From: a virus
Taxonomy: Duplodnaviria > Heunggongvirae > Uroviricota > Caudoviricetes
IMG/VR virus record: IMGVR_UViG_3300046522_000750
Direction: 5' to 3' (one strand)
Length of the DNA stretch: 64,000 nucleotides
Shown here: in pieces, positions 11,180-53,780 of the stretch
How the letters are laid out: the number at the start of each line of letters is the position of its first letter
Position numbering within the stretch: position 1 is the stretch's first letter
Notes under the pieces: model-generated
What the model saw: the letters and a program-made list of their open reading frames with translations, nothing else
Told to the model about the DNA's origin: nothing
Database searches by the model: none
Made by a program: the position numbers and the translations under genes

Positions 11180-11551
11180 ATGAACCTGGTAGAAAAAGGC
11201 ATACTGAACGGCGAAATCCCTTTTGGTGATTTGAGCCCGGCTGAGCGCACGAGCATTCTCCAGTCCCTGACCACCGGGCAATTGAAACCTCAACCAGGTG
11301 TCGAACAAAACCACATCTTGGGCCTACTGCTCAGCGGATTTTTCAAGCCAGGAAGCTCAGATTACCGCCAGGCAACCGGAATACTTAAGCGCTGGCATAG
11401 CGCCGACGATGTAGCGCCACAGGTCTCCAACAAACACGGTGCAAAGATGTTCTCCGAGATATTCGGAATCAAGACCGCCGAATCCCTTCTGCCATCTGAT
11501 CTATTCTTGCAGGCCAAAGGACAACTTCTGGAAGATGCCTTGGGGCTATGA
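11180..11551 (+). CDS. LGL-tail family B paralog B1 (short form, 123 aa)
   Basis: C-term EIFGIKTAESLLPSDLFLQAKGQLLEDALGL; stop overlaps start of B2. Confidence 0.7.
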   Translation: MNLVEKGILNGEIPFGDLSPAERTSILQSLTTGQLKPQPGVEQNHILGLLLSGFFKPGSSDYRQATGILKRWHSADDVAPQVSNKHGAKMFSEIFGIKTAESLLPSDLFLQAKGQLLEDALGL

Positions 11552-12132
11552 TGAGCGAAGCCAAAAACACTGAGACAAAACCTTACCTGGAAATGAGCGT
11601 GCAAGAACGCCGTATATGGATCCGTGGACTCATGGAAGACGGAACGTATCCCTACCAAAAGAACATCTCCGTCGAAGACATAATTGAGAACGGTCTGACG
11701 TACAGGGATCCGGAATGGGACTACTACCGATATCGCGTCCAATTGGAAGGCGTCGATCCAGCCCTGGCGGCCAAGTATGTGCAGACCTGCAACAGTGCTC
11801 GTTTTTTCATGGACGCCTATGGGCTTGAGCGATCAAAGCCGTACTTGTCGAGCTACCTTTGGATCTATGCGTACCATAGCTCAGTCGGAAAATTCGAGAA
11901 TAACGCACAAACCAAGCGTGACATTGGCCTGCTCATTGCTGACAGAGGGGCAGACCTTGTCTGTGAGGAAATCAGGAGTCGAAACCCTGCGGAGATTAAT
12001 ATAATGATGCTTCTCAAGCACTGGGGAGAAAGTTTCGTCGATATCCTCGGACACAAAGCCGTTTCCGGATTGCCGCCTGCGCTGGCCAACAAAATCAAAG
12101 GCGTGTCTCTCGAAGAGGCATTAGGCCTGTGA
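11548..12132 (+). CDS. LGL-tail family B paralog B2 (194 aa)
   Basis: Family motifs ERRIWIRGLMEDGTYP, YYRYR.QLE..DPA, ARFF..AYGLERSKPYLSS..W; tail KGVSLEEALGL. Confidence 0.8.
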   Translation: MMSEAKNTETKPYLEMSVQERRIWIRGLMEDGTYPYQKNISVEDIIENGLTYRDPEWDYYRYRVQLEGVDPALAAKYVQTCNSARFFMDAYGLERSKPYLSSYLWIYAYHSSVGKFENNAQTKRDIGLLIADRGADLVCEEIRSRNPAEINIMMLLKHWGESFVDILGHKAVSGLPPALANKIKGVSLEEALGL

Positions 12133-12710
12133 TGGAAAATTCTACTCATCTAACCGAAAAGCCATTCCTGAGCCTGACCATGGCTGAGCGCCGAGAATAC
12201 ATTCGCGGATTGATGCTCGATGGTTCCTATCCCAACGATGAATCCATGAGTGTTCGCAAAATCGTGGACAATGGCATGGAGTGTCGAGAAGTCGAGCGCG
12301 ATTATTACCGATTCCGCATTCAGCTCGAAAACATCGATCCGGCAGTGTCCGCACCCGAGATCAAGACCAATCAGGCCCGATTCTTCCTTGAAGCCTACGG
12401 ACTTGAGCGCGCCAGCCCGTTTCTCTCCAGCTATACATGGATCTGTGCTTGCTCCAATTTAAGGAACAAATCTTCTGCGAGTCCTCAGACAACACAGCAC
12501 ATAAAGATGATCTTGGTGAAGCGTGGCGCTGACAAGGTCTGCGAAGAAGTCAGAAACCGTACGCCGGAACAGATCAAGCGCATGAATTTCTCTGCACTTT
12601 GGGGGCAAAATTTCATCGAGATTTTTGGCCTGAAGGCTCTTAATGGATTGCCGCCCGAGATGGCCAGTCGCTTCAAGGCTCGACACCTTGAGAGTGCCAT
12701 GGGCCTTTGA
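12129..12710 (+). CDS. LGL-tail family B paralog B3 (193 aa)
   Basis: Same motif set; tail KARHLESAMGL; start overlaps B2 stop (GTGATG). Confidence 0.8.
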   Translation: MMENSTHLTEKPFLSLTMAERREYIRGLMLDGSYPNDESMSVRKIVDNGMECREVERDYYRFRIQLENIDPAVSAPEIKTNQARFFLEAYGLERASPFLSSYTWICACSNLRNKSSASPQTTQHIKMILVKRGADKVCEEVRNRTPEQIKRMNFSALWGQNFIEIFGLKALNGLPPEMASRFKARHLESAMGL

Positions 12711-12728
12711 CGACCACCGGAGAAGACA

Positions 12729-13322
12729 ATGTCCCCAGAGCAGCTAGAAAAATTTAACGAGAAACGACTCAGGGAAGAGGCGTTGGCCGAATCCTTCAGC
12801 GCCCTGCCCCCGGACGAACGCGAGTTCTTTGTCCGCGAGCAGATCAGGCGAGGCGAGTACGCCAGCGACTCAAAGCTGAGCATCCAGGACATCCTGAATC
12901 TGGTCGATATTTATGGCGAATGGGAGCCTGAATATTATCGCTACCGGATGGCACTTGAAGCCATCGACCCAGCGATTGTGGAACAGGATATTCACAGTAA
13001 GGATGAAGCCAGAATCTTCGTCGAATCCTATGGCCATGAGCGCGCCAAACCATTTTTGCCAAGCCGGCTTTGGCTCGAAGCCTACAATGACGGCAGCACA
13101 AAGATTGAAACGCGCCACAACATCAAGTACATCCTGGAGTGCCGTGGGCCTGAGAAAATTGCAGCGGAAGTCTACAAGGAAATGTCGGTCTCACTCAAAA
13201 GCGATGAGCGTTTGGGCCGAATCATCATCCATATTTTTGGGATCAAAGCGGCTACGTTTTTTCCAGCCGAGCTGGCGCGTAAGCTCAAAGGGCAGCACGT
13301 GGAAGACGCACTGGGTCTGTGA
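12729..13322 (+). CDS. LGL-tail family B paralog B4 (197 aa)
   Basis: Same motif set; tail KGQHVEDALGL. Confidence 0.8.
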   Translation: MSPEQLEKFNEKRLREEALAESFSALPPDEREFFVREQIRRGEYASDSKLSIQDILNLVDIYGEWEPEYYRYRMALEAIDPAIVEQDIHSKDEARIFVESYGHERAKPFLPSRLWLEAYNDGSTKIETRHNIKYILECRGPEKIAAEVYKEMSVSLKSDERLGRIIIHIFGIKAATFFPAELARKLKGQHVEDALGL

Positions 13323-13361
13323 CTACCAATTAGGTCATGCAGGCCCTCTGAGCGCCTCAGA

Positions 13362-13712
13362 TCAAAGCAACGGATTTTCTAGCACGTACTGGCGCAGTCG
13401 AATCTTAACGCCGTCTTGGTAGCTACGTGGGGCCCCAGCATCGGCCATGGCGAACTCGATGGCATCAATAGTCTTGAAGTCGTACCAGCCGGCCTTGCGA
13501 GCGGCTTCAACAAAGCTTGGCCACTCGACTTCTACGCCGCGTGCCTGGAGCTGATCCAGAGCGTTTTCCAGCGATAAGCCATGAGTGTCTTTGAGTTCGA
13601 ACAGACGGGATCCTGGGAAGTGCATGTGGACTGGCCTCGTGGCAGTGGTCTGGATTGGCAATACTCGCAAAATGTTTGTTACCTTACAAGGCTGATATCT
13701 GCGGAATGCCAA
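13362..13712 (-). CDS. hypothetical protein on opposite strand inside the B array (probably shorter, from internal Met)
   Basis: ORF between B4 and B5; no family motifs. Confidence 0.3.
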   Translation of the reverse strand: MAFRRYQPCKVTNILRVLPIQTTATRPVHMHFPGSRLFELKDTHGLSLENALDQLQARGVEVEWPSFVEAARKAGWYDFKTIDAIEFAMADAGAPRSYQDGVKIRLRQYVLENPLL

Positions 13713-13782
13713 GGAAAGCTAGGCCGGCAAGCCGGAATAGACGACTTCTCTCGCCAATACACTTTGAGCATTCGCCGAACCC

Positions 13783-14379
13783 ATGAAACGACCGAAGAAA
13801 ATGGCCGATCTTACCGCCGAAGAATTCAGGAATTACGATGGCAAGCGAATACACAACGCACCACTCACATTCCAGGTTTTCGATTCAGATCAACGGCGAG
13901 CATGGGTAAAGGCCGAGCTTAGATCTGGCGATTACGCCGTGGAGAAAAAACTGTCCGCTCGCGACATTTTGTCTTTTGGCTCAGGCCTATTTCAGTGGTG
14001 TCCGGAATACTTTCTCTACCTGATTTTGCTTGCTCGCCATGATCCAGCGGAGGCAGAGGCGCACATTACGAACAATAACCGCGCCATCTTCTTCCTGCGG
14101 GCGTATGGGCTCGAACGAGCAAAGTCATTTGTCTCCAGCCAACAATGGCTGATGGCCATCGACTATTTTATCGGTACGGCCTTCGACAAAAAGACACGAC
14201 ATCAGATAAAGCTTCTTTTGAAGGAGCGCAGAGCCGAGCAGATTGCCCCACTGATCGACGGCATGACCGCAGGCCTCCACTTTCTGGATATTTTTGGCAT
14301 TGAGGCCCTTCCACTGCTGACCCACGACCTGGCAAAGCAGATCAAGGGCCGTCATCTTGAAAGCAAACTAGGTTTGTAA
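13783..14379 (+). CDS. LGL-tail family B paralog B5 (198 aa)
   Basis: Motifs DQRRAWVKAELRSGDYA, YFLYLILLARHDPAEAEAHI, FFLRAYGLERAKSFVSSQQW; tail KGRHLESKLGL. Confidence 0.8.
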   Translation: MKRPKKMADLTAEEFRNYDGKRIHNAPLTFQVFDSDQRRAWVKAELRSGDYAVEKKLSARDILSFGSGLFQWCPEYFLYLILLARHDPAEAEAHITNNNRAIFFLRAYGLERAKSFVSSQQWLMAIDYFIGTAFDKKTRHQIKLLLKERRAEQIAPLIDGMTAGLHFLDIFGIEALPLLTHDLAKQIKGRHLESKLGL

Positions 14380-14953
14380 TGACCATTACGCACGAAGACT
14401 GCTTGAAATACGACAGGAAATACATCTATAACCGGCCTCTAAATTTCGCCGACCTAAGCGCTGCTGAACGACACGCATGGGTCGATACCGAGCTGAGAGC
14501 CGGTGATTATGCGGACGTAAAAGGACTGCCTCTCGAGTATGTGTTGGCTTTCGGGGCCACCACCAATGAATGGTATCCTGAGTACTATCTGTATCTCATT
14601 TTATTGTCGGGATTTGATCCTGCTCAAACCGCGCCACACATTACGCGGGCAATCAGGGCAGTGTTTTTTATACTGGCCTATGGCGTCGAGTTGGCGCTCC
14701 CTATGTATCCACCAGTGTATGGCTTGAAGCAATGAGGGAGCCCCCCTTCACCCCAGAAGAGATAAAAGCGAGGGACATGATCGAGCTTCTGCTGAAACGT
14801 CGTGGTGTAGACCTCGTCGCCCCCTTCATCACGGACAAAGACACCGGCGAAATCTTTGTCGAGGTTTTTGGTGTCAAATCGCTTACTTTGCTGCCCGATG
14901 ACATCGCAAATCAGGTCAAGGGTCGACTACTTGAGGCGGAATTGGGTCTGTGA
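14379..14953 (+). pseudogene. family B paralog B6, frameshifted
   Basis: N-terminal part (14379-14735, ...AVFFILAYGVELALPMYPP) and C-terminal part (14732-14953, ...KGRLLEAELGL) are homologous to intact B members but lie in different frames. Confidence 0.65.
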
Positions 14954-15490
14954 GCCCCATAATGAAAATGAATGAAGAAAATATTGAGAGCATTGAAGCC
15001 AAGCTTTACGAAGGAAACCCGTTTCCTGGCAAGCCTGCCGACTTCCGTCATCGCAGCTACACGGCGCGTCGGGAGTGGGTTTTGAATGAGATGGCTCGTG
15101 GAGATTTTGAGAGAGAAAAAAGCCTAGGCGTTGAAGAGGTTATTTTCTTTTGTTGCACTTACGGGCCCAGTTCCCCAATGCACTTCATGTTCCGATCTTT
15201 GCTGTAACGATTTGAGCCTGAAGAGGCCGCCAGGCACGTGAAAATAAACATGCACGCGATCAGCTTTTTCCAGGCCTTTGGCTTAGAGCGTTCAAAACCA
15301 TTCGTGTCCAATGAAATTTGGCTGACGGTCTTTGCACATAACGCATTGATGAAGCCTGACAAGGTCGATCTGGACGGCATAAGGCTTCTTATTGAAAGCC
15401 GTGGTGATGAACAAATTGCCAAATTCATAAAAAACAAAGAACAGAGTGCCATTTTCATCGAAATTTTTGGCTTTAATTCGTTCTCTTTAC
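14950..15490 (+). pseudogene. family B paralog B7, 5' portion (in-frame TAA at 15205-15207, then truncated by IS insertion)
   Basis: 14950-15207 and 15238-15490 are one frame and both align to family B (…EPEEAARHVKINMHAISFFQAFGLERSKPFVSNEIW…EIFGFNSFSLP); homology stops at TTAC 15487-15490. Confidence 0.65.
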
Positions 15491-16735
15491 CAACAAAAGC
15501 GCGAAATGCTCCACCCAATTGAGAAAAACAGGAGCCTGCGACTTCATTGACAATTGGCTGGAGATGGACAGCGCAGCGGCGTAGCCGCCATCGCTTGAAA
15601 TTCAAAAAATAGACCTCATAGTCGTTTGCATGACCGATATGAAATCGACCAAAACCCTGAAGATTCGAGTGCGCGACAAGCACGCAGCGCAGCTGCGTGA
15701 ATGGTCTCGTTCGGTGAATTTCGTGTGGAACTATGTGAACGAATTGAGCAGTCGCTCAATTCGCGAGCACGGTCGCTTTCTATCGGCATTCGATATCCAC
15801 AAGTACACCAACGGCGCCAGCAAAGAACTGGGTTTACACAGCCAGACCGTGCAGGGCATCGCCGACGAATACGTAACCCGCCGCAAGCAGTTCAAGAAGC
15901 GCCAGCTGCGCTGGCGCATCTCGGGCGGAGCGAGACGCAGCCTAGGCTGGGTGCCATTCAAAGTCGGTGCGGCGACTTGGAAAAATGGCCAGGTCTGCTT
16001 CAGCAAAGAGTACTTCAAGGTATGGGATAGTTACGGCCTGGCCGATTACAAATTCCGCGCCGGCAGCTTCAACGAAGACTCGCGGGGCCGCTGGTACTTC
16101 AACGTCGTTGTTGAGGTCGACCGAGAGCTATCGCCAGGCCAGGACGCCATCGGCATCGACTTGGGGCTGAAAACCGTTGCCACCTGCAGCGATGGTCACA
16201 AGCTTGAAAACGGACGCTTCTACCGCGATTTAGAGAAGGCGCTGGGCACCGCCCAGCGCGCCGGCAAGAAAGCCCGCGTGCGGGCGATTCACGCCAAGAT
16301 CGCGAACCGTCGAAAGGATGCTTTGCACAAATTCAGCACAGCGCTGGTGAAGCGTTGTGGCTTGATTGTGGTGGGCGATGTCAGCTCACTAAAACTCGCG
16401 AAAACCATGATGGCCAAGTCGGTGATGGATGCCGGCTGGGGCCAATTGAGAACGATGCTGGCCTACAAATGCGATCACGCAGGCATCCTTTTCAAGGTGA
16501 AAAACGAGAGCAACACCACCCAACCCTGCTCGGACTGCAAGAAATTGCCAGATTCGAGGCCGAGAGGTATCGCAGGGGGCTCGGAATAAGAGAATGGACT
16601 TGTAGTGAGTGCGGTGCCACTCACGACCGCGACGTCAATGCCGCCAAGAACATTCTCGCGCTCGGGCAAGAGCGTCCTACAGAGGGAATCCCCTTCCAAA
16701 TCACATGATTTGGTGGGGGTGGATGTCAATACTGC
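15491..16735 (+). mobile_element. IS200/IS605-family TnpB-only insertion sequence (about 1.24 kb) inserted 3' of TTAC
   Basis: Host B7 reading frame is broken after ...ttctctTTAC and resumes at 16736 (cagatctcgcaaaacag = DLAKQ...); element contains tnpB and a subterminal hairpin (GCGGCgtaGCCGC at ~15570). Confidence 0.75.
15630..16708 (+). pseudogene. tnpB: TnpB (IS605 OrfB-type RNA-guided nuclease), apparent -1 frameshift in a G5 run at 16575-16579
   Basis: ORF 15630-16589 (319 aa) carries RuvC-like core (IDLGLKTVATCSDG...) and continues in another frame as GLGIREWTCSECGATHDRDVNAAKNILALG (zinc finger plus RuvC-III) to 16708. Confidence 0.75.
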
Positions 16736-16791
16736 CAGATCTCGCAAAACAGGTAAAGGGACAGCTTCTGGAAGATTCATTGGGACTATGA
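16736..16791 (+). pseudogene. family B paralog B7, 3' fragment displaced by the IS
   Basis: Encodes DLAKQVKGQLLEDSLGL*, the family tail; in-register continuation of ...FSLP at 15490. Confidence 0.65.
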
Positions 16792-16862
16792 ATCGGATCA
16801 TTCGCCAAGCAAAAGCTCCCAGGCTAAAATGAAACGACGCCACTTAGGGAAGCACTCGGCCT

Positions 16863-17441
16863 ATGAAAAACCTCACCAAGCGCCAGCTCGAAGATTACGA
16901 CAACTGCAGAATTAGGCCGCCAGCAGACTACCAAGCCATGGACACCGACCAGCGCCGGGCCTTCGTCCTTCAGGAGATAGAGTCTGGTAAGCACTCCGTG
17001 GAGGAAAGCCTCTCCATTCACGACATTCTGCACTTCAGCGGGCAGACGGGCTGCGAAAGCCCTGAATACTTTCTCTATCGAATCCTCCTTGAGCGAAAAG
17101 ACCCCTCTGAAGTTGAGCAGCACCTGAAGGAAGATCTCGACTACATGCTGTTCTTCGAGCTTTACGGCATCGAGAGCGCCAAGACTCATCTGAAAAGTGC
17201 TCGGCTACTGGATCTCCATCACCTCATCGAATATTACGGTGATGACATCTACGTCAGTGCGAACGACATCGAGCTTATGCTCCACGAGCGAGGCTGTGAA
17301 GCCGTCGCTGCCGAGGTCACGAACAAAAAACTGTGCGAAAGCTACGTCGAGATATTTGGCCTTCAGTCCATCAAGTTTGTGCGAAAAGACGTCGCCAACA
17401 AGTTCAAGGGTGATCGACTAGAAGAGGGTCTCGGCCTATGA
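16863..17441 (+). CDS. LGL-tail family B paralog B8 (192 aa)
   Basis: Motifs DQRRAFVLQEIESGKHS, YFLYRILLERKDPSEVEQHL; tail KGDRLEEGLGL. Confidence 0.8.
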   Translation: MKNLTKRQLEDYDNCRIRPPADYQAMDTDQRRAFVLQEIESGKHSVEESLSIHDILHFSGQTGCESPEYFLYRILLERKDPSEVEQHLKEDLDYMLFFELYGIESAKTHLKSARLLDLHHLIEYYGDDIYVSANDIELMLHERGCEAVAAEVTNKKLCESYVEIFGLQSIKFVRKDVANKFKGDRLEEGLGL

Positions 17442-17502
17442 ATCCGATCAGAGACTAGGTGTTGTAGAATCGATAAGCGTTGTACAAAGAGAGCCAGCTT
17501 CT

Positions 17503-17545
17503 CAGCCCAAAGGCCGGCACCTCGAAGATCAGCTTGGCCTTTGAC
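17503..17545 (+). pseudogene. remnant of a family B gene (tail only)
   Basis: cagcccaaaggccggcacctcgaagatcagcttggcctttga encodes QPKGRHLEDQLGL*, which matches the B10 tail; no upstream ORF. Confidence 0.5.
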
Positions 17546-17616
17546 CGTCGACCAGCTTTCTTGCACCAGCAAGAGCTAGATTTAAACGCAGCCCCGTCAC
17601 CGGAAGTTACGACCTC

Positions 17617-17991
17617 GTGCAAAGAGAACGACCCCAGAAAACAGCTCGCGAGACTCTAGAGGCAAACATCGCCAAGGACGCCGCAACCATCAAGTCTCGC
17701 CTGGGCGCCAGAGACTTTGTATCGAGATGGGGTGTCGATAATTGCAAGCCATACTTAACGGAGGATTTATGGCTTGACGCATACTTATTGGTGAGCAACA
17801 GATCTGAAAAGAGCATGATTGCCGATATCCTGCATTCTCGTGGTGCTGAAAAAACCGCACAAGCCGCAACCACCCAGGAAAAGGGGATGGTGCTGATCGA
17901 GATCTTTGGGATGGGTGCCCACAAGCTCTTGTCCTGGGAGATATCTAACAAGGTCAAAGGCCGTCACCTAGAGAATGAGCTTGGCCTATAG
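17617..17991 (+). CDS. LGL-tail family B paralog B9 (short form, 124 aa)
   Basis: KPYLTEDLWLDAYLL core; tail KGRHLENELGL. Confidence 0.75.
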   Translation: MQRERPQKTARETLEANIAKDAATIKSRLGARDFVSRWGVDNCKPYLTEDLWLDAYLLVSNRSEKSMIADILHSRGAEKTAQAATTQEKGMVLIEIFGMGAHKLLSWEISNKVKGRHLENELGL

Positions 17992-18063
17992 CCTTCGCCT
18001 ACAATTTCTTGCGCCAGCAAGAGCTACGATTTCAGTAGACCAGTGACCAAGTGACAGGAATCC

Positions 18064-18447
18064 ATGCCGAGAACAAAGCCAAAGAAAACAACCAGGCATG
18101 TCTATGGCAACAGCCTCTCCAAAGACATCGCGCACATCTGGACTGGCCACGGAGCGAATATTCTTGCATCAAGATGGGGAGCGGTTAATTCCAGGGCGCA
18201 TCTCAGCGATGACCTGTGGCTGGACGCGTACCTGATCAGCCAATCCAAGGACGACATGGATCAGATGTTGATTATCAGCGAAATCCTCAAATATCGCGGC
18301 GTGGTACAAGTGGCGCAAGCCGCCACTACGACTGAAAAGGGGATGATCGTGATCGAAGTCTTTGGCTTCGAGGCGCACAAGTACCTACCCAGCGATATTT
18401 CCAGACAGGTCAAAGGCCGGCACCTTGAAGATCAGCTGGGCCTATAA
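18064..18447 (+). CDS. LGL-tail family B paralog B10 (short form, 127 aa)
   Basis: Close paralog of B9 (AHLSDDLWLDAYLIS..., VAQAATTTEKGMIVIEVFGFEAHKYLP); tail KGRHLEDQLGL. Confidence 0.75.
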   Translation: MPRTKPKKTTRHVYGNSLSKDIAHIWTGHGANILASRWGAVNSRAHLSDDLWLDAYLISQSKDDMDQMLIISEILKYRGVVQVAQAATTTEKGMIVIEVFGFEAHKYLPSDISRQVKGRHLEDQLGL

Positions 18448-23639: not shown

Positions 23640-24278
23640 TCAAAGCCCTAATCGCTCAGACAGCAACTCTCCAGCGTCCTTGCGGCTGATAACACGCTCT
23701 AGGCCGATCAGATCGTATTTGCGCACGAGCCTGCCCAGTGCTTTCTGCGAAACGTGATTGATCAGGAAATCTTTATGGCCTTGCATCTCAGTGAAAAACT
23801 TCAGAACCACACCCTGTGCGAACTCCTGATCAACGTTTTTCGTGCCATAGGAGGCCGACCCAACACCCAGCAGCTTCAGAACACCCGAGTGGTCAAGCTT
23901 GACGGTTTCGGCCCATAGGGCATGCACGAACAGCCTGACGTCCGCCTTGTCTTGCTTGAGTGCCTTCATCGTCACGGCCAGCATTTGGTAGTACGCCGGC
24001 ATGGTCATGAATTTGGAGCATTCCACATGCACCTCTGCCAATTTGTAGCAAATAAACTCGCGAGACCGCTTCGGGTCTGTTTCCAGGGAACAAAGCAGGT
24101 AAAAGCCATATTCGGTACGGGATTCAAGGCCGCGAATCAGGTCGACATTAAAGCCGTGATTAACGGTAGAGATTGCCGCATCCAGCTGGCGCTGCTCACG
24201 TTCGGGAAGCCAGGAAAAACGACCCTCCACGCCGGCAACCTTCATCACGTTCAGCCTAACAAGATCGTCGTAATTCAC
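23640..24278 (-). CDS. family B-like protein carrying the LGL tail (212 aa)
   Basis: C-terminus ...ISRKDAGELLSERLGL; FFTEMQGHKDFL aligns to the B-family (F)LDIFGIEAL segment. Confidence 0.6.
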   Translation of the reverse strand: MNYDDLVRLNVMKVAGVEGRFSWLPEREQRQLDAAISTVNHGFNVDLIRGLESRTEYGFYLLCSLETDPKRSREFICYKLAEVHVECSKFMTMPAYYQMLAVTMKALKQDKADVRLFVHALWAETVKLDHSGVLKLLGVGSASYGTKNVDQEFAQGVVLKFFTEMQGHKDFLINHVSQKALGRLVRKYDLIGLERVISRKDAGELLSERLGL

Positions 24279-25457: not shown

Positions 25458-26321
25458 TTACAAGCCCAGGCCGCCATCATATTTTATGGGCGTTGTGCGC
25501 TTCTCGACTTCGATTTCGATTTCGTGGCGCTTTGCGATCTCAGCCGCCACTTGTGGGAAGCCGGCATCGCGCAGCTTATTGGTCACGCTGAGGGCATGTG
25601 CACTGTGATCTTGACCTGCCTCTTCATAAGCTTGCGAATAAAAGCCAGTAAGCGCCGGGATAGCTTTGATCTCATCAGCTGTCAGTGGGTTTTTAGCGAA
25701 CTCATCCACTCTGAAAATCTGAGCCGATGGCGAGAATTCAATGGCATAGTTACCAAACGTTGACCCTGTTGCCATCTGAGAAAGCCACTCGCGCTCCGTG
25801 TAGATGCTGCGCACAGGATCCATAAAACTTAAGCCTGTACTTTCGGATTCTGGGGCGGTGAGCGACAGAGCAGAAGCTGCCATAAAAGTGGCAGCCTGAG
25901 GGGTTTGGATGGCATCCACGAACGCGTCGACGAACTCCTTGCGGGTGACGGGAGTAATGTCGGACAGCGAATTTAAAATGGCTTTTAGATTCTTTTCGGA
26001 AAACATGCTCCAGCCAGGGTTATTCAGCTGTGCTCTCATGGCGTCTAGATCTGATTCTTCGATCTTGTGCAGATAAAGCAGTGGCGTACCCGCATATTCT
26101 GAATCGGCAGCAGCGAACTCATAGCGTTCAAGATCGGATAAAGGACTCTTGGCGCCTTTAGCCCTGAGGTACAGACCGAAGAACGGCTCACCATGCGCAT
26201 TTGGATGATCCATGGTCGGATCAAAGCCTTCGAAAATGCCGTTGGCGGATGATTTGTATTCTGTGCTCACGGGAAGCTCCATTCGTTTCATTAAGTCCAG
26301 TGTATCGACTGAGCTTGACAT
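25458..26321 (-). CDS. hypothetical protein ending in GGLGL (family C, 287 aa)
   Basis: Paralog of 26417-27250 (FGLY.RAKG / FGFYPRPEAK; AFV.AIQ.PQ; LTADE.KA.P motifs); C-terminus ...IKYDGGLGL. Confidence 0.7.
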   Translation of the reverse strand: MSSSVDTLDLMKRMELPVSTEYKSSANGIFEGFDPTMDHPNAHGEPFFGLYLRAKGAKSPLSDLERYEFAAADSEYAGTPLLYLHKIEESDLDAMRAQLNNPGWSMFSEKNLKAILNSLSDITPVTRKEFVDAFVDAIQTPQAATFMAASALSLTAPESESTGLSFMDPVRSIYTEREWLSQMATGSTFGNYAIEFSPSAQIFRVDEFAKNPLTADEIKAIPALTGFYSQAYEEAGQDHSAHALSVTNKLRDAGFPQVAAEIAKRHEIEIEVEKRTTPIKYDGGLGL

Positions 26322-26364
26322 GGAACAATCACCGGCAGATCTCTCTATGAAAGCCGTTCACGCC

Positions 26365-26400
26365 TAAAAAATAAAAAAAGACGCGCCAGGCGGCGCGTCT
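26365..26400 (-). terminator. rho-independent terminator after gene 26417-27250
   Basis: 9-bp perfect stem AGACGCGCC-aggc-GGCGCGTCT (26379-26400), followed on the minus strand by TTTTTTATTTTTT. Confidence 0.8.
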
Positions 26401-26416
26401 CTTATTTACCCTCAAA

Positions 26417-27250
26417 TCACATGCCGAGGCCTGGATCTTCGTGTTTGCGCTGTGGCTTTGTTACCTCAGCCTCAAGCTCAAATTTCTTCGTGATGTATGC
26501 CGAAATTTCAGGGTAGCCGGCACTCTCCAGCTTCTTGGCGCACGACTCTGCATGGCGGCCCAGGTCATGCTCAACCTCAGCATACACCTCTGGAATTTCA
26601 CCGAGAATAAAAGGCATCGCCAAGACTTCATCCGCAGTCAGTGGGGCCGCCTCCCAAGCGGCAGCCCGAAAATACTGGCCAGACATCACAAAGTCACTCG
26701 GATTCGAGTCTTTCAGGTTATAGGCGACTGAAGCCAGCTCAACCATCCTCGCGGTGAACTGATTATCAGGGTTATTTCCAAGTACGCTTACACCAGGTAA
26801 ACCAAGCTCGCCCCGGACGTCACTTAATCTTCGGCTAATCGCGACCAACGCGTAGAACCCCGCGCACTGAGGCTGCTGAATCGCTTCAACATAAGCCTTG
26901 GCAAATTCACTTTTAGTCACGTCCGAAAATGCTTTTGAGGAATTCATCACCGACAGCGCCAACCGTGAAGAGCTTACGAAAATCTCCTGGCCGGCAGCAG
27001 CTGCTTTCAAGTTCTCAAGATCATCAATTGTGATCGCTCGATCAAATTCTGGATAAGGAATTTTTGAACGAAAATCAGTGAATTTATTTGGAGATCGTTT
27101 TGAAAACGCGATGAGGAAGGACTCTGTTTTTGCTTCGGGTCTTGGATAAAACCCAAACACAGGATCTCCATTGACCTTGGACAGATCCTGAGTCGGATCT
27201 AAACCTTCATAAATTTTTGCGATTTCTGGGTTTGGTTTAATGCTGGTCAT
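26417..27250 (-). CDS. hypothetical protein ending in PGLGM (family C, 277 aa)
   Basis: Paralog of 25458-26321; C-terminus ...KHEDPGLGM. Confidence 0.7.
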   Translation of the reverse strand: MTSIKPNPEIAKIYEGLDPTQDLSKVNGDPVFGFYPRPEAKTESFLIAFSKRSPNKFTDFRSKIPYPEFDRAITIDDLENLKAAAAGQEIFVSSSRLALSVMNSSKAFSDVTKSEFAKAYVEAIQQPQCAGFYALVAISRRLSDVRGELGLPGVSVLGNNPDNQFTARMVELASVAYNLKDSNPSDFVMSGQYFRAAAWEAAPLTADEVLAMPFILGEIPEVYAEVEHDLGRHAESCAKKLESAGYPEISAYITKKFELEAEVTKPQRKHEDPGLGM

Positions 27251-33903: not shown

Positions 33904-34839
33904 TCAAAGGCCCATGGCGCTTTCCAGTAATCCCGCTTTCAAATGGCGGTTCGTATTCAAGAAGGGGCGCAGTTCTGCCTCTGTATAGATCTCGAGAGCC
34001 AAGGAGACGTGTTTGCGGGTGGTCAGCAAGGGAATGACCTCCTCGATTGGCTGCGCTTTCACAAAACTCAAATACAGCGAGCACGAGTCAAATTTGCCAC
34101 TCGCCACAGCCTTCTCTAATGCCTCATTAAGCGTTTTTGGCTTTTCGAGCACCTCATTGTTGTCGATATAAACCAGGGGCCAATGCCCATTGCGTATGAA
34201 TTGGGCTGGCAGGTCAAGGCGCCCTGCTTTCCTGGCCTCTAGGTAGGAGAAAAATCCCTCCCCAAAACGAATTTCAAAAACCGATTCAGAGACCTTGCTG
34301 GGCGGGAGGATTAACACGAATTCTAAGGAAGACCTGCCCGCGAGCTCAAAGAGTTCCGGCGTCATGACGCTCTCAATCCACGGGATCGCCTCAAAGCTTT
34401 TAGAGAATTTCGCCGGCCTAGTCGCAAAGGTAGGCATCTTGATCATGCGCTTTACGGTTTCTGTTGTACGAAAGTCTTCATGGAAAATGGCGGGCGCCAT
34501 AAAGTCGCCAACAAACGCGCTAACGCAGAGATCTTGGTAGCTGGGCGTTTGCTCGGGCGTGATAAAACCGAGAATTTCAGGGTCGTGATGCACCGCAAAT
34601 TTCAAAAGATCTTCTCCCAATAAATCCTTGGGAATCTGCACATAGTGTTCAGACATGCCTTCTTTGTCTGTGGTGTGCATGGCCATGAGCCAATTCAGGA
34701 CGTTCACTGGCGTACGAAGCGCCTGAGGGATGTCCGTGAATTTCGGGTACAGCAAAAAGGGCTCGACCCTTTCCGCGTAATCGTCATCTAGCTGATAGAT
34801 TTTCATTTTCACGCTAGTTTTCCCAATACCACCGCCCAA
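33904..34839 (-). CDS. LGL-tail family A paralog A01 (311 aa; last gene of array)
   Basis: Family A motifs (F.DIP, QIP..L, PWI.SVMTPEL, GRLDLPA, SLY.SFVKA.PIEEV); tail KAGLLESAMGL. Confidence 0.85.
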   Translation of the reverse strand: MGGGIGKTSVKMKIYQLDDDYAERVEPFLLYPKFTDIPQALRTPVNVLNWLMAMHTTDKEGMSEHYVQIPKDLLGEDLLKFAVHHDPEILGFITPEQTPSYQDLCVSAFVGDFMAPAIFHEDFRTTETVKRMIKMPTFATRPAKFSKSFEAIPWIESVMTPELFELAGRSSLEFVLILPPSKVSESVFEIRFGEGFFSYLEARKAGRLDLPAQFIRNGHWPLVYIDNNEVLEKPKTLNEALEKAVASGKFDSCSLYLSFVKAQPIEEVIPLLTTRKHVSLALEIYTEAELRPFLNTNRHLKAGLLESAMGL

Positions 34840-34864
34840 GCCAATTCTTAAGGCGCTTTCTGAC

Positions 34865-35767
34865 TCATAAGCCCATCGAGGATTCCAAGACGCCGGCCTT
34901 CAAATGCCGGTTGTTTCTCATCAGGGGACGAAGTTCTTCTTCTGTATACAGCTCGGTCATCAATTTCGCGTGATCACGTGTGGTGGCCAGAGCAAGTACG
35001 TCTTCGATGGGATGCGCCTTCACAAAACTCATGTACAGCGCACGGGGGCCATCTTCCGTATACTCCAGAGCGCGTTTGAGCCCAATCTCCAGTGTTTTTG
35101 GCCTTCCAATCACTTGATCGAAATTCCTGGTGACATAAGGCCAAGATCCATTTGCTATAAACTTGGCCGGCAAGTCCAGGCGCCCTGCAGATCTGGCCCT
35201 CATGAGCTTACCAAAGCCACTACTAAAGTGATGTTTCAGAGCTAAATCGGAAGCGCTTGAGGCCGGATGCAACATCAAAAAATTAACTGAAGCCCTACTG
35301 GCTCGTTCGTGAAGCTCAGGGGTCATGACGCTTTGTATCCATGGAATGGCTTCAAAGCTCTTGGAGAACATCGCCGGCTTTAAGCCATAGTCAGGCTGAT
35401 TAATCATGAGCTCTACGGTTTCTGCCGTCCGGACACTTTCATGAAAAATCATCGGCGCCATATAATGCCCAACAAATGCTGAGACACAGTGATCTTGATA
35501 ATTAGGCGTGTCTTCAGGTTTGATAAGATCAATTATCAGGGGATCATATTCCACAGCAAATTTGAGGATCTCCTCATCAATCAAATCTTTTGGAATTTGC
35601 ACAAAGTGCTCAGACATATCGTCTTCGTCTGTTGTATGCATCGCTTTGAGCCAACGCAAGGCGCCTATCGATGTACGACTCGCCTCTGGAATGTCGGTAA
35701 ACTTTGGATACTGTAGAAATGGCTGTACAAACGTAATATAAGATATGTCCGATTGATACTTTTTCAT
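34865..35767 (-). CDS. LGL-tail family A paralog A02 (300 aa)
   Basis: Close paralog of A01; tail KAGVLESSMGL. Confidence 0.85.
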   Translation of the reverse strand: MKKYQSDISYITFVQPFLQYPKFTDIPEASRTSIGALRWLKAMHTTDEDDMSEHFVQIPKDLIDEEILKFAVEYDPLIIDLIKPEDTPNYQDHCVSAFVGHYMAPMIFHESVRTAETVELMINQPDYGLKPAMFSKSFEAIPWIQSVMTPELHERASRASVNFLMLHPASSASDLALKHHFSSGFGKLMRARSAGRLDLPAKFIANGSWPYVTRNFDQVIGRPKTLEIGLKRALEYTEDGPRALYMSFVKAHPIEDVLALATTRDHAKLMTELYTEEELRPLMRNNRHLKAGVLESSMGL

Positions 35768-35822
35768 GCTTTGTGTTCCGAGTCTGCCGCCCTGGCCAAT
35801 TATTCAGGTGCTTTCTTCCACT

Positions 35823-36683
35823 TTACAGGCCGAGCGAGCATTCAAGCAAAGTCGCTTTAAGGAGTCGGTTGTTCTTGATGTGAGGGCGAAGCTCTTGTTC
35901 GCTATACATCTCAAGCACATTTTTGGCGTGCGAAGGACTGGTAACCGCCGCGATGACATCTTCAATGGGATGGCTCATCAAGTAAGCCATGTACACCTCA
36001 GGCCAGTCGTTGAGGCCGGGTTTTACCAGCTCGGAAAAGGCTTCCTCCAGACTGCCTGGCTTTTTCAAATTATCCTCGAAGGGGCCAGTGGCCTCCGGCC
36101 AGACACCTTGTTGCAAATACTCAGCGCCGAGTCTCAATCTTCCGGCTTTTTTCAGGTACGAATAGTTTGAGAAGCTATGCCCCAGATGTGTATTCAGGGC
36201 GGCCTGGCTGATTTGATCACGAGGCAGCGTCAGCATGAAGTTCATGTTTGCAATAGAGGCCTTCTCAATCAAGTCAGGCGTCATTGACTGGGCAATCCAA
36301 GGGCAGATGCTGTAGGTACTGACGAAACTCCAAGAGATCATCATCATTTCAATAGCTTCTTTCGTGCGAGCTTCTTGTTTGAACAGTGCAGCAGACTTGT
36401 AATCGGTTCGGTAGGCGAGACCGCACAATCCGAAATAATCCGCCGTATCGGCAGGGTCAATCAACCCTATCACCCTAGCGTCTTCGCAGATCGCAAATGC
36501 CCTCAATTCCTCGGTAACAAACTGGGAAGGGAGTTGCTGAAAAAGACCGCAGACATCAGCAAAGTTTAAGGGCGCCACAGACTTGAACCAGCGAGACGCG
36601 CCATAGAGGTTCTGGCAATTATCTGGAAGATCCTCGAATCGCTGAAAGCCCTTGTAGAACTCATCAGAAAGTTCGTTATTCAT
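35823..36683 (-). CDS. LGL-tail family A paralog A03 (286 aa)
   Basis: Family motifs; tail KATLLECSLGL; ATGA overlap with A04. Confidence 0.85.
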   Translation of the reverse strand: MNNELSDEFYKGFQRFEDLPDNCQNLYGASRWFKSVAPLNFADVCGLFQQLPSQFVTEELRAFAICEDARVIGLIDPADTADYFGLCGLAYRTDYKSAALFKQEARTKEAIEMMMISWSFVSTYSICPWIAQSMTPDLIEKASIANMNFMLTLPRDQISQAALNTHLGHSFSNYSYLKKAGRLRLGAEYLQQGVWPEATGPFEDNLKKPGSLEEAFSELVKPGLNDWPEVYMAYLMSHPIEDVIAAVTSPSHAKNVLEMYSEQELRPHIKNNRLLKATLLECSLGL

Positions 36684-37534
36684 AGTCCTAAAGACTCCTC
36701 AAGCAAGGCAGCTTTCAGGTGCCGATTTTTTCTGGCATGGGGGCGAAGCTCTTTTTCGTCATACATCTCGACCACCAGTTTTGCGCACGACGGCGCCACC
36801 ACCAGGGCCATGACATCCTCTATGGGGTACGTCATGACATAAGCCATATACAGCTCTCGAGGTACATCTTCACCGAGAAGCTCGGAGAATGCCTCGACAA
36901 GGCTGTCCGGCCTTGGGATCGGATCATCGAATGGCCCATTCGGTTTTGGCCAGCCACCCCCCTTCAAAAAGGCTACCCCAAGGTGCAACCTTCCAGATTT
37001 TTGCAGGACTGTGTAGGTGTAATCGCCTTTGCTTAGGTGTTTATTCAGCGCAGCCTCACTAACTTGATCATAAGGCAGAGACAGCATGAACTCATCGCTG
37101 AAAAGAGATAAATCTTCAACGAGTTTTGGGGTCATTTCCTGACGGATCCACGGGTGATCTCGGTAGCTTTTTATAAAAGACCAGAGATCCATCATCATCA
37201 GCTCCACCATTTCCGTGGTTCGTACCTCTTCCTTGAAGAACTCAGCCGCCCGGTAATCGTTTCGATAAGCAAGAAGGCAAATTGCCGTGTAGGCCGGCGT
37301 GTCTTCTGGCTCAATCAGGCCCAACACTTCAAAGGCATTGCTTACGGCGTATTTTCGCATCTCATCGGTGATGAGGTTCAGCGGTATTTGTTGAAAACAG
37401 TCACTTGCAATATTGGCATCTGCATCTTTGGTGACCTCTTTGTACCACTGGAAGGCACCAAAAGAATTTTTGCAATGCTCTGGCAGCTTTTCGAAGCGGT
37501 CAAAGGCCTTGTAGAAATTGTCGTCCAAGCTCAT
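36680..37534 (-). CDS. LGL-tail family A paralog A04 (284 aa)
   Basis: Tail KAALLEESLGL; ATGA junctions both sides. Confidence 0.85.
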   Translation of the reverse strand: MSLDDNFYKAFDRFEKLPEHCKNSFGAFQWYKEVTKDADANIASDCFQQIPLNLITDEMRKYAVSNAFEVLGLIEPEDTPAYTAICLLAYRNDYRAAEFFKEEVRTTEMVELMMMDLWSFIKSYRDHPWIRQEMTPKLVEDLSLFSDEFMLSLPYDQVSEAALNKHLSKGDYTYTVLQKSGRLHLGVAFLKGGGWPKPNGPFDDPIPRPDSLVEAFSELLGEDVPRELYMAYVMTYPIEDVMALVVAPSCAKLVVEMYDEKELRPHARKNRHLKAALLEESLGL

Positions 37535-48253: not shown

Positions 48254-48289
48254 TGTCCCCTGCCCGTTATGCGTGCCCTGCCATAACGG

Positions 48290-49180: not shown

Positions 49181-49201
49181 TTCTCGGGCCTTGTTCTTCT
49201 G

Positions 49202-53765: not shown

Positions 53766-53780
53766 CAGCGAAATCCTTTT

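What the first reader, a model, noticed from the sequence alone, without database searches (positions are those of the whole stretch)
11180..18447. Second, convergent array of shorter paralogs (family B) sharing only the C-terminal tail with family A
Ten plus-strand genes or gene remnants of 123-198 aa share motifs: ERR.WI.GLM.DG.YP, YY.YR.QLE..DPA, ARFF..AYGLERAKPFLSS.W and a ~35-aa C-terminal module. They end in ...KG..LE[DE].LGL, the same tail as family A about 15 kb away on the other strand. The last conserved helix also looks similar: EIFG..AL..LPPE versus EMYS.E.L.PF. Three members (B1, B9, B10) are natural short forms that keep mainly the C-terminal module, which suggests this module is the functional unit. 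Stops and starts overlap or abut: B1/B2 ATGA, B2/B3 GTGATG, B5/B6 TAATG.
Basis: seen in the sequence. Interest (0 to 1): 0.85.

Follow-up and report, generated by a model that had tools for sequence, protein, structure and literature searches.

The report
Megaplasmid gene arrays sharing an LGL tail
Ten tandem genes encode small helical proteins that all end in the same 11-residue tail, and this tail also marks dozens of unrelated proteins on a family of ~1-Mb Pseudomonas-type megaplasmids, so it is most likely an address label read by one plasmid machine.

Summary
Window 11180-18447 (+) carries ten family-B paralogues: seven intact, one split by a frameshift, and one killed by an in-frame stop plus an IS605-type insertion. 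All end in [KR]-G-x-x-L-E-x-x-L-G-L.

The same tail ends family A, which has at least 40 tandem ~290-aa genes rather than a handful. It also ends families C, D and E.

A and B share more than the tail. Profile-profile comparison aligns the C-terminal third of A with the N-terminal two thirds of B. B also carries an internal duplication of the last ~45-residue helical module.

Both families are all-alpha, with no relative in Pfam, NCBIfam, PADLOC, PHROGs or PDB. Only 32 representative clusters out of 1.84 billion match B.

The element is related to the ~1-Mb pMPPla107 family of Pseudomonas megaplasmids, which encode a Dot/Icm-like type IV secretion system. On the closest sequenced relative, pPL1, 23 ORFs from 13 unrelated families end in G-x-x-F-x-x-D-L-G-L. 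These include orthologues of A and C. So the tail has a different version in each plasmid lineage, shared across families within that lineage.

This argues for a portable C-terminal recognition peptide read by one shared partner. My best guess for the partner is the type IVB coupling complex, which would make these proteins exported cargo. That step is unproven.

The parts
11180..11551 (+). B1, short form (123 aa), ends KGQLLEDALGL. Its stop overlaps the B2 start (ATGA).
   Evidence: It is 80-84% identical to 123-aa orthologues in L003 and L006. dN/dS is 0.22.
11548..12132 (+). B2, full length (194 aa), ends KGVSLEEALGL. This is the protein that was modelled.
   Evidence: AlphaFold2 gives pLDDT 89.3 and pTM 0.83, all-alpha, with the terminal helix at 177-191 followed by LGL.
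12129..12710 (+). B3, full length (193 aa), ends KARHLESAMGL.
   Evidence: dN/dS is 0.08.
12729..13322 (+). B4, full length (197 aa), ends KGQHVEDALGL.
13362..13625 (-). Embedded 87-aa gene on the opposite strand, inside the B array. It is not a B member.
   Evidence: It is 92-98% identical across four contigs in which B orthologues are only 45-88% identical.
13783..14379 (+). B5, full length (198 aa), ends KGRHLESKLGL.
14379..14953 (+). B6, split into two ORFs in different frames (14379-14735 and 14732-14953) that overlap by ATGA. The second piece keeps the terminal module and tail.
14950..15490 (+). B7, 5' part. It is a pseudogene with an in-frame stop at 15205-15207, and it is cut by the IS directly after TTAC (15487-15490).
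15491..16732 (+). tnpB-only IS200/IS605-family element (1,242 bp). Its tnpB is frameshifted (ORFs 15630-16589 and 16355-16708).
   Evidence: Pfam OrfB_IS605 E 1.2e-16 and Cas12f1-like_TNB E 6.3e-9. Junctions were read. Removing the element restores ..FSLLPDLAKQVKG..
16733..16791 (+). B7, 3' remnant carrying the tail ..LPDLAKQVKGQLLEDSLGL.
16863..17441 (+). B8, full length (192 aa), ends KGDRLEEGLGL.
17617..17991 (+). B9, short form (124 aa). It lacks the N-terminal ~75 residues and ends KGRHLENELGL.
18064..18447 (+). B10, short form (127 aa) and last gene of the array. It keeps the tail KGRHLEDQLGL although no gene follows it.
23640..24278 (-). Family D, a single 212-aa gene ending AGELLSERLGL. 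No detectable similarity to A or B apart from the tail.
25458..27250 (-). Family E, two paralogues (25458-26321 and 26417-27250) with a weaker tail (..KYDGGLGL and ..HEDPGLGM).
33904..63655 (-). Family A, 33 complete tandem ~290-aa genes, most with 4-nt stop/start overlaps, each ending [KR]-[GA]-x-x-L-E-x-x-[LM]-G-L. A further partial gene runs off the window end at 63652-64000.
   Evidence: AlphaFold2 gives pLDDT 95.2 and pTM 0.85, a helical repeat. The array continues in L005.

Best explanation
Family B is a lineage-specific, tandemly expanded family of small cytoplasmic all-alpha proteins. It sits on a ~1.1-Mb element related to the pMPPla107 family of Pseudomonas megaplasmids.

Each full-length B protein has three parts: a domain homologous to the C-terminal third of family A, a second copy of that domain's last ~45-residue helical module, and an 11-residue tail, [KR]-G-x-x-L-E-x-x-L-G-L-COOH.

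The tail is a portable C-terminal recognition peptide. It is attached to many otherwise unrelated protein families on these megaplasmids. Its sequence version is specific to each plasmid lineage and shared by all families within that lineage. It is therefore read by one shared, plasmid-encoded partner.

The most likely partner is the coupling complex of the family's Dot/Icm-like type IVB secretion system (an IcmO/DotL-type coupling protein). Under this reading the tail-bearing proteins are exported or translocated cargo, and their diversified helical parts act as target-binding modules.

What is shown and what is inferred:
- Shown: the families, the A-B homology, the internal duplication, the protein-level conservation of the tail, and its portability and lineage-specific versions.
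- Inferred: that one partner reads the tail (my estimate about 0.7).
- Inferred more weakly: that the partner is the type IVB system (about 0.35).
For: 1. The tail is the most conserved block in both families. A has 2.7-3.5 bits per column and B has 3.2, against about 1.7-1.9 elsewhere.

2. The conservation is at protein level. Leu, Gly and Glu codons vary freely. Between orthologues the tail has high pS with low pN. Whole-gene dN/dS is 0.08-0.28, so these are real genes under purifying selection.

3. The tail is kept on last-in-array and solitary genes, such as B10 and D.

4. A and B are homologous beyond the tail, and B has an internal repeat, with shuffle controls.

5. The tail is portable.
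- C and D match A and B only over the last 10-20 residues.
- In 200 kb sampled from P. silesiensis pPL1, 23 ORFs end in [DE]LG[LMI] and fall into 13 BLAST families of 230-549 aa. Eleven of those families have no similarity to A or B.

6. The tail version changes together across families.
- All 23 pPL1 tails have F at -7 and D/E at -4. Only the D/E was required by the search; the F was not.
- All window-lineage families (A, B, C, D) have L at -7; E at -6 holds in A, B and C (S in the one D member).
- Families A and C occur in both lineages and carry the local version in each.

7. An A homologue without the tail exists on the FeN3W megaplasmid (hhalign prob 99.8, columns 4-286). The fold therefore does not need the tail.

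8. Megaplasmid context.
- Non-array window proteins hit almost only 0.88-1.17-Mb Pseudomonas and Vibrio megaplasmids.
- Family C is found only in pPL1 among 72,556 plasmids.
- pPL1 has a full-length orthologue (61.6% identity) of the IcmO/DotL-like coupling protein of pMPPla107.
- pMPPla107 is typed MPF_I and is reported to carry a complete Dot/Icm-like system whose possible effectors are unknown (PMC3136466).
- pMPPla107 itself has at least 4 ORFs ending in DLGL.

9. The tail has a hydrophobic residue at -3 and acidic residues at -4 to -6. From my own knowledge, this is compatible with described features of Dot/Icm signals.
Against: - No type IV secretion gene was seen in the window or in any locus of its own lineage. 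The link runs through relatedness to pPL1 and pMPPla107.
- MOB-suite typing lists no mating-pair-formation type for pPL1 or FeN3W.
- From my own knowledge, known Dot/Icm signals are degenerate rather than a strict motif, so a sharp consensus would be unusual.
- The AlphaFold models place the tail residues at the end of a confidently predicted helix (pLDDT about 88-91). The tail could therefore be partly packed rather than a free peptide.
- Some of the 'unrelated' families may be remote homologues that single-sequence profile comparison cannot detect.
- Only about a fifth of pPL1 and an eighth of pMPPla107 were scanned.
- No experiment bears on export.
Confidence: 0.45

Rival explanations
1. 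The tail is a C-terminal degron. An apolar ..LGL-COOH end preceded by acidic residues is recognised by an unfoldase or protease (ClpXP, Lon or Tsp-like). This would keep these many plasmid proteins short-lived or conditionally stable.
For: - The tail sits at the extreme C-terminus and ends in apolar residues.
- It is portable across families and has lineage-specific versions, which fits any shared reader.
- A 655-671-aa AAA+ protein with a Lon-like ATPase module (TIGR00763, E 8e-12) lies directly upstream of the B array in L001, L003 and L006.
Against: - That AAA+ gene is absent from the window, yet the B tails there remain intact and under purifying selection.
- The AAA+ protein shows no protease domain.
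- It is unclear why dozens of expanded families would all be tagged for degradation.
- Host proteases would not drive plasmid-lineage-specific versions of the tail.
Confidence: 0.15
2. The tail is an assembly motif. It docks into the helical-repeat surface of another paralogue or of a hub protein, giving head-to-tail hetero-oligomers.
For: - Every carrier modelled is a helical-repeat-like, all-alpha protein. Such folds commonly bind terminal peptides (my own knowledge, for example TPR domains binding EEVD).
- A shared reader is supported.
Against:
- A tail-less A homologue exists.
- Pairing was not tested.
Confidence: 0.15
3. There is no shared reader. The tail is just the conserved end of an ancient common domain, inherited by descent in one large superfamily and kept for folding reasons.
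For: - A and B are homologous well beyond the tail, and B is built from repeats of the same module.
- The tail forms the end of a confidently predicted helix.
- The C and D C-termini resemble the module by eye (LLP..RG..LE..MGL and IGLERV...).
Against: - An A homologue folds to the same profile without the tail.
- Descent alone does not predict that families A and C switch version together between plasmid lineages, with L-E-x-x-LGL in one and F-x-x-D-LGL in the other.
- Eleven pPL1 carrier families show nothing in common with A or B.
Confidence: 0.1
4. The conservation is a nucleic-acid or translation signal. The tail codons provide the Shine-Dalgarno sequence and coupling context for the next gene in the array.
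For: In A, the Glu codon at -6 is GAG in 15 of 22 genes whose stop overlaps the next start. It is GAG in only 1 of 9 genes without overlap (Fisher p = 0.006). GAG here gives GAGGAG or GAGGAT about 12 nt before the next ATG.
Against: - This explains codon choice at one or two positions only.
- The amino-acid motif persists with free synonymous variation, on terminal and solitary genes, and in the pPL1 version, which has no GAGGA.
- The statistic is confounded by the relatedness of neighbouring genes.
Confidence: 0.03
5. The arrays are immunity or antitoxin genes of polymorphic toxin systems, or the tail is a beta-clamp-binding peptide like the QLVLGL-COOH of Pol IV.
For: - Tandem arrays of divergent small genes are typical of orphan immunity clusters (my own knowledge).
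- LGL-COOH matches the last three residues of the Pol IV clamp-binding peptide (my own knowledge).
- pMPPla107 encodes its own dnaE, dnaQ and dnaB.
Against: - No toxin domain or any PADLOC, Pfam or NCBIfam hit lies in or next to the arrays.
- The clamp motif needs Gln at position 1 and a hydrophobic residue at position 2. Here these are Glu and Asp/Glu, or Gly/Ser and any residue.
Confidence: 0.05

Closest known systems
C-terminal translocation signals of Dot/Icm (type IVB) substrates in Legionella and Coxiella, read by the DotL(IcmO)-DotM-DotN-IcmSW coupling complex
   Same: - The signal sits at the extreme C-terminus of many unrelated proteins encoded by one replicon that carries a Dot/Icm-like system.
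- It has acidic residues and a hydrophobic residue at -3.
- Carriers are often helical-repeat proteins in expanded paralogue families.
- The megaplasmid family has an IcmO/DotL-type coupling protein.
   Different: - Known signals are degenerate and have no strict consensus. Here there is a sharp 7-11-residue motif ending in LGL-COOH, with plasmid-lineage-specific versions.
- The system here sits on a conjugative-type megaplasmid of free-living Pseudomonas, not in an intracellular pathogen.
- Translocation is untested.
DUF4116 (PF13475) helical-repeat proteins of giant viruses, phages and bacteria
   Same: - The best BFVD structure matches of the family A model are mostly DUF4116 proteins.
- Two of 33 A members give weak Pfam hits.
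- A DUF4116 gene lies near the A-like gene on the FeN3W plasmid.
- DUF4116 proteins also occur as multi-copy families.
   Different: - All matches are below significance: Foldseek E >= 7e-3 and Pfam best E 0.0018.
- B has no hit at all.
- DUF4116 proteins are not known to carry the LGL tail, and their function is unknown.
Ankyrin-PRANC/F-box multigene families of poxviruses and Orientia (from my own knowledge)
   Same: Both are tandem or clustered paralogue expansions of alpha-helical repeat proteins with variable N-terminal binding parts. Both end in a short conserved C-terminal module that plugs every member into one common machine.
   Different: PRANC is an F-box-like domain of about 30-40 residues that binds host Skp1. 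No sequence or structural similarity to it was found or specifically tested here. The host here is a bacterium.
Encapsulin cargo-loading peptides and other C-terminal targeting peptides
   Same: Both are short, Gly-containing hydrophobic peptides at the extreme C-terminus. Both are portable between unrelated cargo proteins and are read by one shell protein.
   Different: No encapsulin or HK97-type shell gene was seen among the neighbours scanned. Dozens of cargo families of up to 550 aa would be unprecedented.
pMPPla107 / pBASL58 family of ~1-Mb Pseudomonas megaplasmids
   Same: - Size: contigs of 1.11-1.28 Mb.
- G+C of about 51-53%.
- Mostly hypothetical genes.
- Shared DUF808 (75% identity), R2K ATP-grasp (35-42%) and other proteins.
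- Closest relative is pPL1, which shares families A and C and the coupling protein.
   Different: - The window's lineage is known only from metagenome contigs.
- It is absent from GTDB representative genomes, IMG/VR and PLSDB.
- Its A and B arrays are far larger than anything seen in the sequenced relatives.

Membership tests
DUF4116 (Pfam PF13475) | Match to the Pfam model at or above its gathering score | tested here: not met
   A: 2 of 33 members match, best E 0.0018, and the member shown has no hit. B: no Pfam hit. The structural resemblance is weak only.
Dot/Icm (type IVB) substrates | A Dot/Icm-type secretion system encoded in the same cell or replicon | tested here: inconclusive
   Present in relatives: pMPPla107 is typed MPF_I and has a complete Dot/Icm-like system (PMC3136466). 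pPL1 has an IcmO/DotL-like coupling protein at 61.6% identity. None was seen in the 64-kb window or in loci of its own lineage. The rest of the 1.13-Mb contig could not be read.
Dot/Icm (type IVB) substrates | A C-terminal signal that is sufficient and necessary for translocation | not testable with these tools
   This needs reporter-fusion translocation assays. The sequence shows only compatible features: hydrophobic at -3 and acidic at -4 to -6.
IS200/IS605 family (the insertion in B7) | TnpB with OrfB_IS605 and zinc-ribbon domains, inserted 3' of a TTAC-type tetranucleotide without target duplication | tested here: met
   Pfam hits. The junction lies directly after TTAC at 15487-15490, and the B7 reading frame is restored on excision. 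No tnpA is present, and tnpB is frameshifted.
pMPPla107-type megaplasmids | A ~1-Mb replicon sharing backbone genes, including the coupling protein, with pMPPla107 and pBASL58 | tested here: inconclusive
   Contig sizes are 1.11-1.28 Mb. Cargo-type genes are shared.
Beta-clamp-binding motif (QL[SD]LF / QLxLxL) | Gln at position 1 and a hydrophobic residue at position 2 of the penta- or hexapeptide | tested here: not met
   The tail positions are E, then D/E, x, L, G, L in the window lineage. In pPL1 they are S/G, x, D, L, G, L.
Polymorphic-toxin immunity arrays | An adjacent toxin gene, or membership of known immunity families | tested here: not met
   No toxin or immunity domain was found in A, B, C, D or their neighbours with Pfam, PADLOC or NCBIfam.
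Encapsulin cargo | A nearby encapsulin (HK97-fold) shell gene | tested here: inconclusive
   None was found among about 40 neighbouring proteins scanned. Most of the replicon was not examined.

The most novel reading that the evidence does not exclude
The motif hydrophobic(-7)-x-x-x-L-G-L-COOH is a previously unrecognised export or translocation signal with a true consensus. It would define a repertoire of tens to more than a hundred substrates of the Dot/Icm-like type IVB system carried by pMPPla107-type megaplasmids. That would mean these conjugative-type megaplasmids deliver a large, rapidly expanding arsenal of helical-repeat proteins (families A, B, C and others) into other cells.
Probability: 0.3. 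Interest if true: 0.85.

Novelty: new variant of a known kind. Interest (0 to 1): 0.68.

Why it matters
pMPPla107-type megaplasmids add about 1 Mb of mostly hypothetical genes to Pseudomonas hosts. Since 2011 it has been an open question whether their Dot/Icm-like system only conjugates DNA or also secretes proteins (PMC3136466).

A sharp, lineage-specific C-terminal tail shared by dozens of otherwise unrelated plasmid proteins gives a concrete candidate substrate list and a short peptide to test. The tail occurs on plasmids of cultured strains: pMPPla107 and P. silesiensis G3 pPL1. The question is therefore directly testable with reporter fusions.

The tail also assigns a common feature to a sizeable share of these plasmids' unannotated genes.

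Tried and rejected
- Phage origin. tblastn of B and A against 50,697 phage records found nothing. IMG/VR scans found nothing. Only three neighbours hit PHROGs of unknown function.
- Chromosome of a known species. Two GTDB genome scans found nothing.
- Known families. Pfam, PHROGs, PADLOC, NCBIfam and PDB sequence searches gave nothing for A, B, C, D or E.
- Walking along the 1.13-Mb contig. Two window proteins were not on record with my start codons. Proteins from outside the window cannot be looked up.
- Alignment-based locus searches.
- Metagenome scan with family C found nothing.
- Metagenome scan with a tail DNA pattern gave 57 single hits. Almost all were chance or unrelated proteins. L072 was the exception and proved useful.
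- Word-indexed homologue searches with profiles returned few hits, 15 and 20, because of the candidate cap.
- Recombination-type, DNA-level conservation of the gene ends was rejected because the tails differ synonymously.
- DNA mimicry or unusual charge was rejected. Median pI is 5.4 for A and 5.9 for B, like their neighbours.
- The Lon-like AAA+ gene as an obligatory partner of B was rejected because it is missing from the window.

Full report
**1. The observation**

The + strand between 11180 and 18447 carries ten family-B genes or remnants, as described. They align into one family with 23-47% pairwise identity and the quoted motifs.

- Seven are intact: B1-B5 and B8-B10 count as eight, of which B1, B9 and B10 are short forms.
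- B6 is split into two ORFs in different frames that overlap by ATGA.
- B7 has an in-frame stop at 15205-15207. It is also interrupted by a 1,242-bp tnpB-only IS200/IS605-type element (15491-16732) inserted directly after TTAC. Removing the element restores ..FSLLPDLAKQVKG...

The tail is not a chance feature. 44 of 427 ORFs of at least 60 aa in the window end in [LM]GL, against 0-2 in 20 shuffles.

**2. Extent of the phenomenon in the window**

Family A is much larger than the finding implies. There are 33 complete tandem genes of about 290 aa on the minus strand from 63655 down to 33904. The array continues outside the window. A Logan contig that carries the last A gene shows seven more A genes. 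These are preceded by two 529-543-aa proteins (family C) that end ..LLPAKDRGEILEGAMGL and ..RGELLETAMGI.

Inside the window the tail also ends a 212-aa protein (family D, 23640-24278). In a weaker form it ends two proteins of about 280 aa (family E, 25458-27250).

**3. These are real genes, conserved at protein level**

Syntenic B arrays of 12-18 members occur on other metagenome contigs. Window-versus-L003 orthologues have dN/dS of 0.08-0.28, similar to flanking genes.

The arrays differ in member number and order, so they gain and lose genes. The short forms are conserved as such: B1 is 80-84% identical to 123-aa orthologues.

In both A and B the last 10-14 residues are the most conserved block. 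The tail codons vary synonymously, so the constraint is on the peptide.

There is one DNA-level nuance. In A, the Glu at -6 is encoded GAG in 15 of 22 genes whose stop overlaps the next start, but in only 1 of 9 others (p = 0.006). This gives a GAGGAG or GAGGAT Shine-Dalgarno-like sequence for the next gene. It affects codon choice, not the motif.

**4. Relation of A and B**

- The last 50 alignment columns of A (33 sequences) against B (35 sequences) give hhalign prob 95, E 4.5e-8.
- Twenty column shuffles of B all give E >= 0.047, and reversed B gives E 0.13.
- Plain HMMER with a 36-column B-tail profile ranks nearly every A member above all other ORFs, always aligned at the exact C-terminus.

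The best full-length alignment is in a different register. A columns 174-281 align to B columns 22-120 (prob 94.8, E 5e-8). This survives removal of the last 8-20 columns (prob about 77, E 2e-5).

B also matches itself: B 77-120 aligns to B 140-182 (prob 78, E 1.8e-5).

So B corresponds to the C-terminal third of A, followed by a second copy of its last module of about 45 residues (..P..V......h-h-E-h-[FY]-[GS]......P..), and then the tail. 'Sharing only the tail' understates the relationship.

**5. Structure and database searches**

AlphaFold2 models are confident and all-alpha:

| Protein | pLDDT | pTM |
|---|---|---|
| B2 | 89.3 | 0.83 |
| A member 37531-38415 | 95.2 | 0.85 |

In both, the tail is the end of the last helix plus a three-residue coil.

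- Against viral models, the top hits for A are mostly DUF4116 proteins of giant viruses and phages, but none reaches E <= 0.001.
- Pfam DUF4116 is touched weakly by 2 of 33 A members.
- Pfam, PHROGs, PADLOC, NCBIfam and PDB sequence searches give nothing else.
- An exhaustive HMMER search with the B profile against 1.84 billion cluster representatives finds only 32 proteins with E <= 1e-3. Sixteen are full-length B members and about 14 are short forms. Two are GIY-YIG proteins with a repeated KGKTYEEIFGxEKA unit, whose meaning is unclear.

**6. What the element is**

The window comes from a 1,131,278-bp metagenome contig. Relatives sit on contigs of 1.11 and 1.28 Mb, and the two whose record names were returned are numbered first in their assemblies. 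The window has no tRNA or Rfam hit. The element is absent from GTDB representatives, IMG/VR, phage records and PLSDB at the level of B.

Its non-array proteins point to one group.

- DUF808 is 75% identical to that of pMPPla107 (972 kb), 73% to that of the Leaf58 plasmid (904 kb) and 64% to that of P. silesiensis pPL1 (1.17 Mb).
- A concatenate of 13 other proteins hits almost only Pseudomonas and Vibrio megaplasmids of 0.88-1.17 Mb.
- Family C is found in pPL1 alone among 72,556 plasmids.
- The IcmO/DotL-like coupling protein of pMPPla107 has full-length orthologues only in Leaf58 (78.6%), FeN3W (64.2%) and pPL1 (61.6%).
- pMPPla107 is typed MPF_I. It was reported to carry a complete Dot/Icm-like system, with the open question of whether it secretes effectors (PMC3136466).

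I conclude that the window belongs to a pPL1-like member of this megaplasmid family.

**7. The key result: the tail is portable and specific to each plasmid lineage**

A DNA-pattern scan for the tail led to a 486-kb contig of a cattle-faeces metagenome (assembly JADGMW, PMC7892668). It has three adjacent tail-bearing genes. Two are clear A homologues, with prob 99.1-99.3 aligned through the last column.

Using one of these as a query found two further loci:
- a second A-like gene on FeN3W, ending ..VKTALLDQAMAL;
- A-like genes on pPL1.

I then scanned four 50-kb pieces of pPL1 and found 23 ORFs ending in [DE]LG[LMI].

- All 23 have Phe at -7, a position not used to select them. The consensus is G-x-x-F-[SG]-x-D-L-G-L.
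- They form 13 BLAST families of 230-549 aa, several in tandem sets.
- Four are full-length orthologues of family C (E 1e-23 to 1e-43).
- Two are family A (prob 98.3-99.4).
- The other eleven families show no similarity to A or B.

pMPPla107 itself has at least four ORFs ending in ..DLGL, three of them in tandem.

In the window lineage, by contrast, families A, B, C and D all carry [KR]-G-x-x-L-E-x-x-L-G-L. The same protein families therefore carry different, lineage-typical versions of the tail. An A homologue on FeN3W that lacks the tail altogether still matches the A profile over columns 4-286 (prob 99.8).

Taken together, the tail behaves like a short linear motif that co-evolves with a single reader encoded by the plasmid.

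**8. Mechanism**

The best candidate is the coupling complex of the family's Dot/Icm-like system.

- It is the one machine known in this plasmid family that recognises C-terminal ends of many unrelated proteins (my own knowledge of Legionella DotL-DotM-IcmSW).
- The coupling protein has a family-specific C-terminal extension. Only the four Pseudomonas megaplasmids match over its full length.
- The tail has a hydrophobic residue at -3 and acidic residues just upstream.

Under this reading A, B, C and the other carriers are exported or translocated cargo. Their expanded, diverged helical parts would be binding modules, and the short B forms would be minimal carriers.

Points against this reading:
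- No secretion gene was seen in this lineage.
- No mating-pair-formation type is listed for pPL1.
- Known Dot/Icm signals are degenerate.
- The tail is modelled as part of a helix.

Alternatives that also use a shared reader are a C-terminal degron and an assembly or docking motif. For the degron, a Lon-like AAA+ gene sits next to the B array in relatives but is missing here. Pure descent, translational coupling, a clamp-binding peptide and immunity arrays are less likely, for the reasons given under the rival explanations.

**9. Novelty and verdict**

The finding is real and richer than first described. Families A and B are undescribed. B is confined to one uncultured megaplasmid lineage.

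To my knowledge the C-terminal ..LGL tail has not been reported. Searches of the held literature for the megaplasmid family and for DUF4116 turned up no mention of a C-terminal motif.

I file it as a new variant of a known kind: an expanded helical-repeat 'effector-like' repertoire sharing a C-terminal signal. Function is unproven. Because the tail also occurs on plasmids of cultured strains, the hypothesis can be tested directly.

Noticed in passing
window 15491-16732: A tnpB-only IS200/IS605-type element is inserted directly 3' of TTAC in B7. Its tnpB is itself frameshifted (ORFs 15630-16589 and 16355-16708). An intact copy with tnpA (Y1_Tnp) and a 428-aa TnpB lies upstream of the B array on the 1.11-Mb relative (L006:5482-7242).
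   Followed up: partly
window 13362-13625 (-): An 87-aa gene on the opposite strand inside the B array is 92-98% identical across four contigs. That is far more conserved than the surrounding B genes. It has no Pfam or PHROG hit, and its function is unknown.
   Followed up: partly
window 33904-63655 (-), tails of family A: The Glu codon at -6 is GAG in 15 of 22 genes whose stop overlaps the next start, against 1 of 9 otherwise (p = 0.006). This gives a GAGGAG or GAGGAT Shine-Dalgarno-like sequence for the downstream gene, so these codons are used both for the tail and for translational coupling. The statistic is confounded by the relatedness of neighbouring genes.
   Followed up: partly
window 9038-10296 versus L001:5225-7872, L003:6071-8077 and L006:1677-3644: A 655-671-aa AAA+ protein with a Lon-like ATPase module and no protease domain sits just upstream of the B array in relatives. 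It is absent from the window, which has only about 1.26 kb there.
   Followed up: partly
proteins P0045 and P0046 (hits of the B profile): These GIY-YIG nuclease-domain proteins carry 4-5 tandem repeats of KGKTYEEIFGxEKAxxLKxKLSxxx. They match B's last module (E 1.9e-5 and 2.6e-4 against 1.84 billion proteins) with the same EIFG-to-KG spacing. This could be remote homology or coincidence of a short motif.
   Followed up: partly
window 7815-8471 (-), 22380-23609 (-) and 7173-7748 (-): Three stand-alone genes have domains typical of phage and conjugative-element 'polyvalent' proteins: ART-PolyVal-like (E 2e-4, below cut-off), an R2K ATP-grasp (E 1.7e-11) and a phrog_4518 protein (E 6e-19). The ATP-grasp is shared with all the ~1-Mb Pseudomonas and Vibrio megaplasmids.
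   Followed up: partly
window 32446-33858 (+): A 470-aa protein is made of four internal repeats of about 110 aa (..YY.V.G.STKYYDA.EAA.AF.KA......V.VM.G.GYGHEVAGVN..G.A.LNKLDFQS.PMT..FQ.A..). It has only a weak Tectonin or PHROG hit.
   Followed up: no
L072 1-2300 (JADGMW010000005.1): Three tail-bearing genes, two of them A homologues, lie in a 37% G+C island. The island sits next to an RND efflux operon, orn and a macro-domain gene, which have about 50% G+C, on a 486-kb contig from a cattle-faeces metagenome. This may be another megaplasmid or a chromosome with an acquired island.
   Followed up: partly
L016-L019, L027, L028, L031 and others (pattern scan): A recurrent ~402-aa protein in ERZ77xxxx and OD.. 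metagenome assemblies ends in ..SDSDSSNKGMSLEDLFGF. It is a different conserved acidic-then-hydrophobic C-terminal peptide, unrelated to A or B.
   Followed up: no
L079 9989-13277 and 16326-17189 (pMPPla107): Annotated hypothetical proteins WP_005742494.1, WP_005742493.1, WP_147480824.1 and WP_005742485.1 end in ..DLGL. The first three are in tandem. They lie about 25 kb from the IcmO/DotL-like coupling protein gene.
   Followed up: partly
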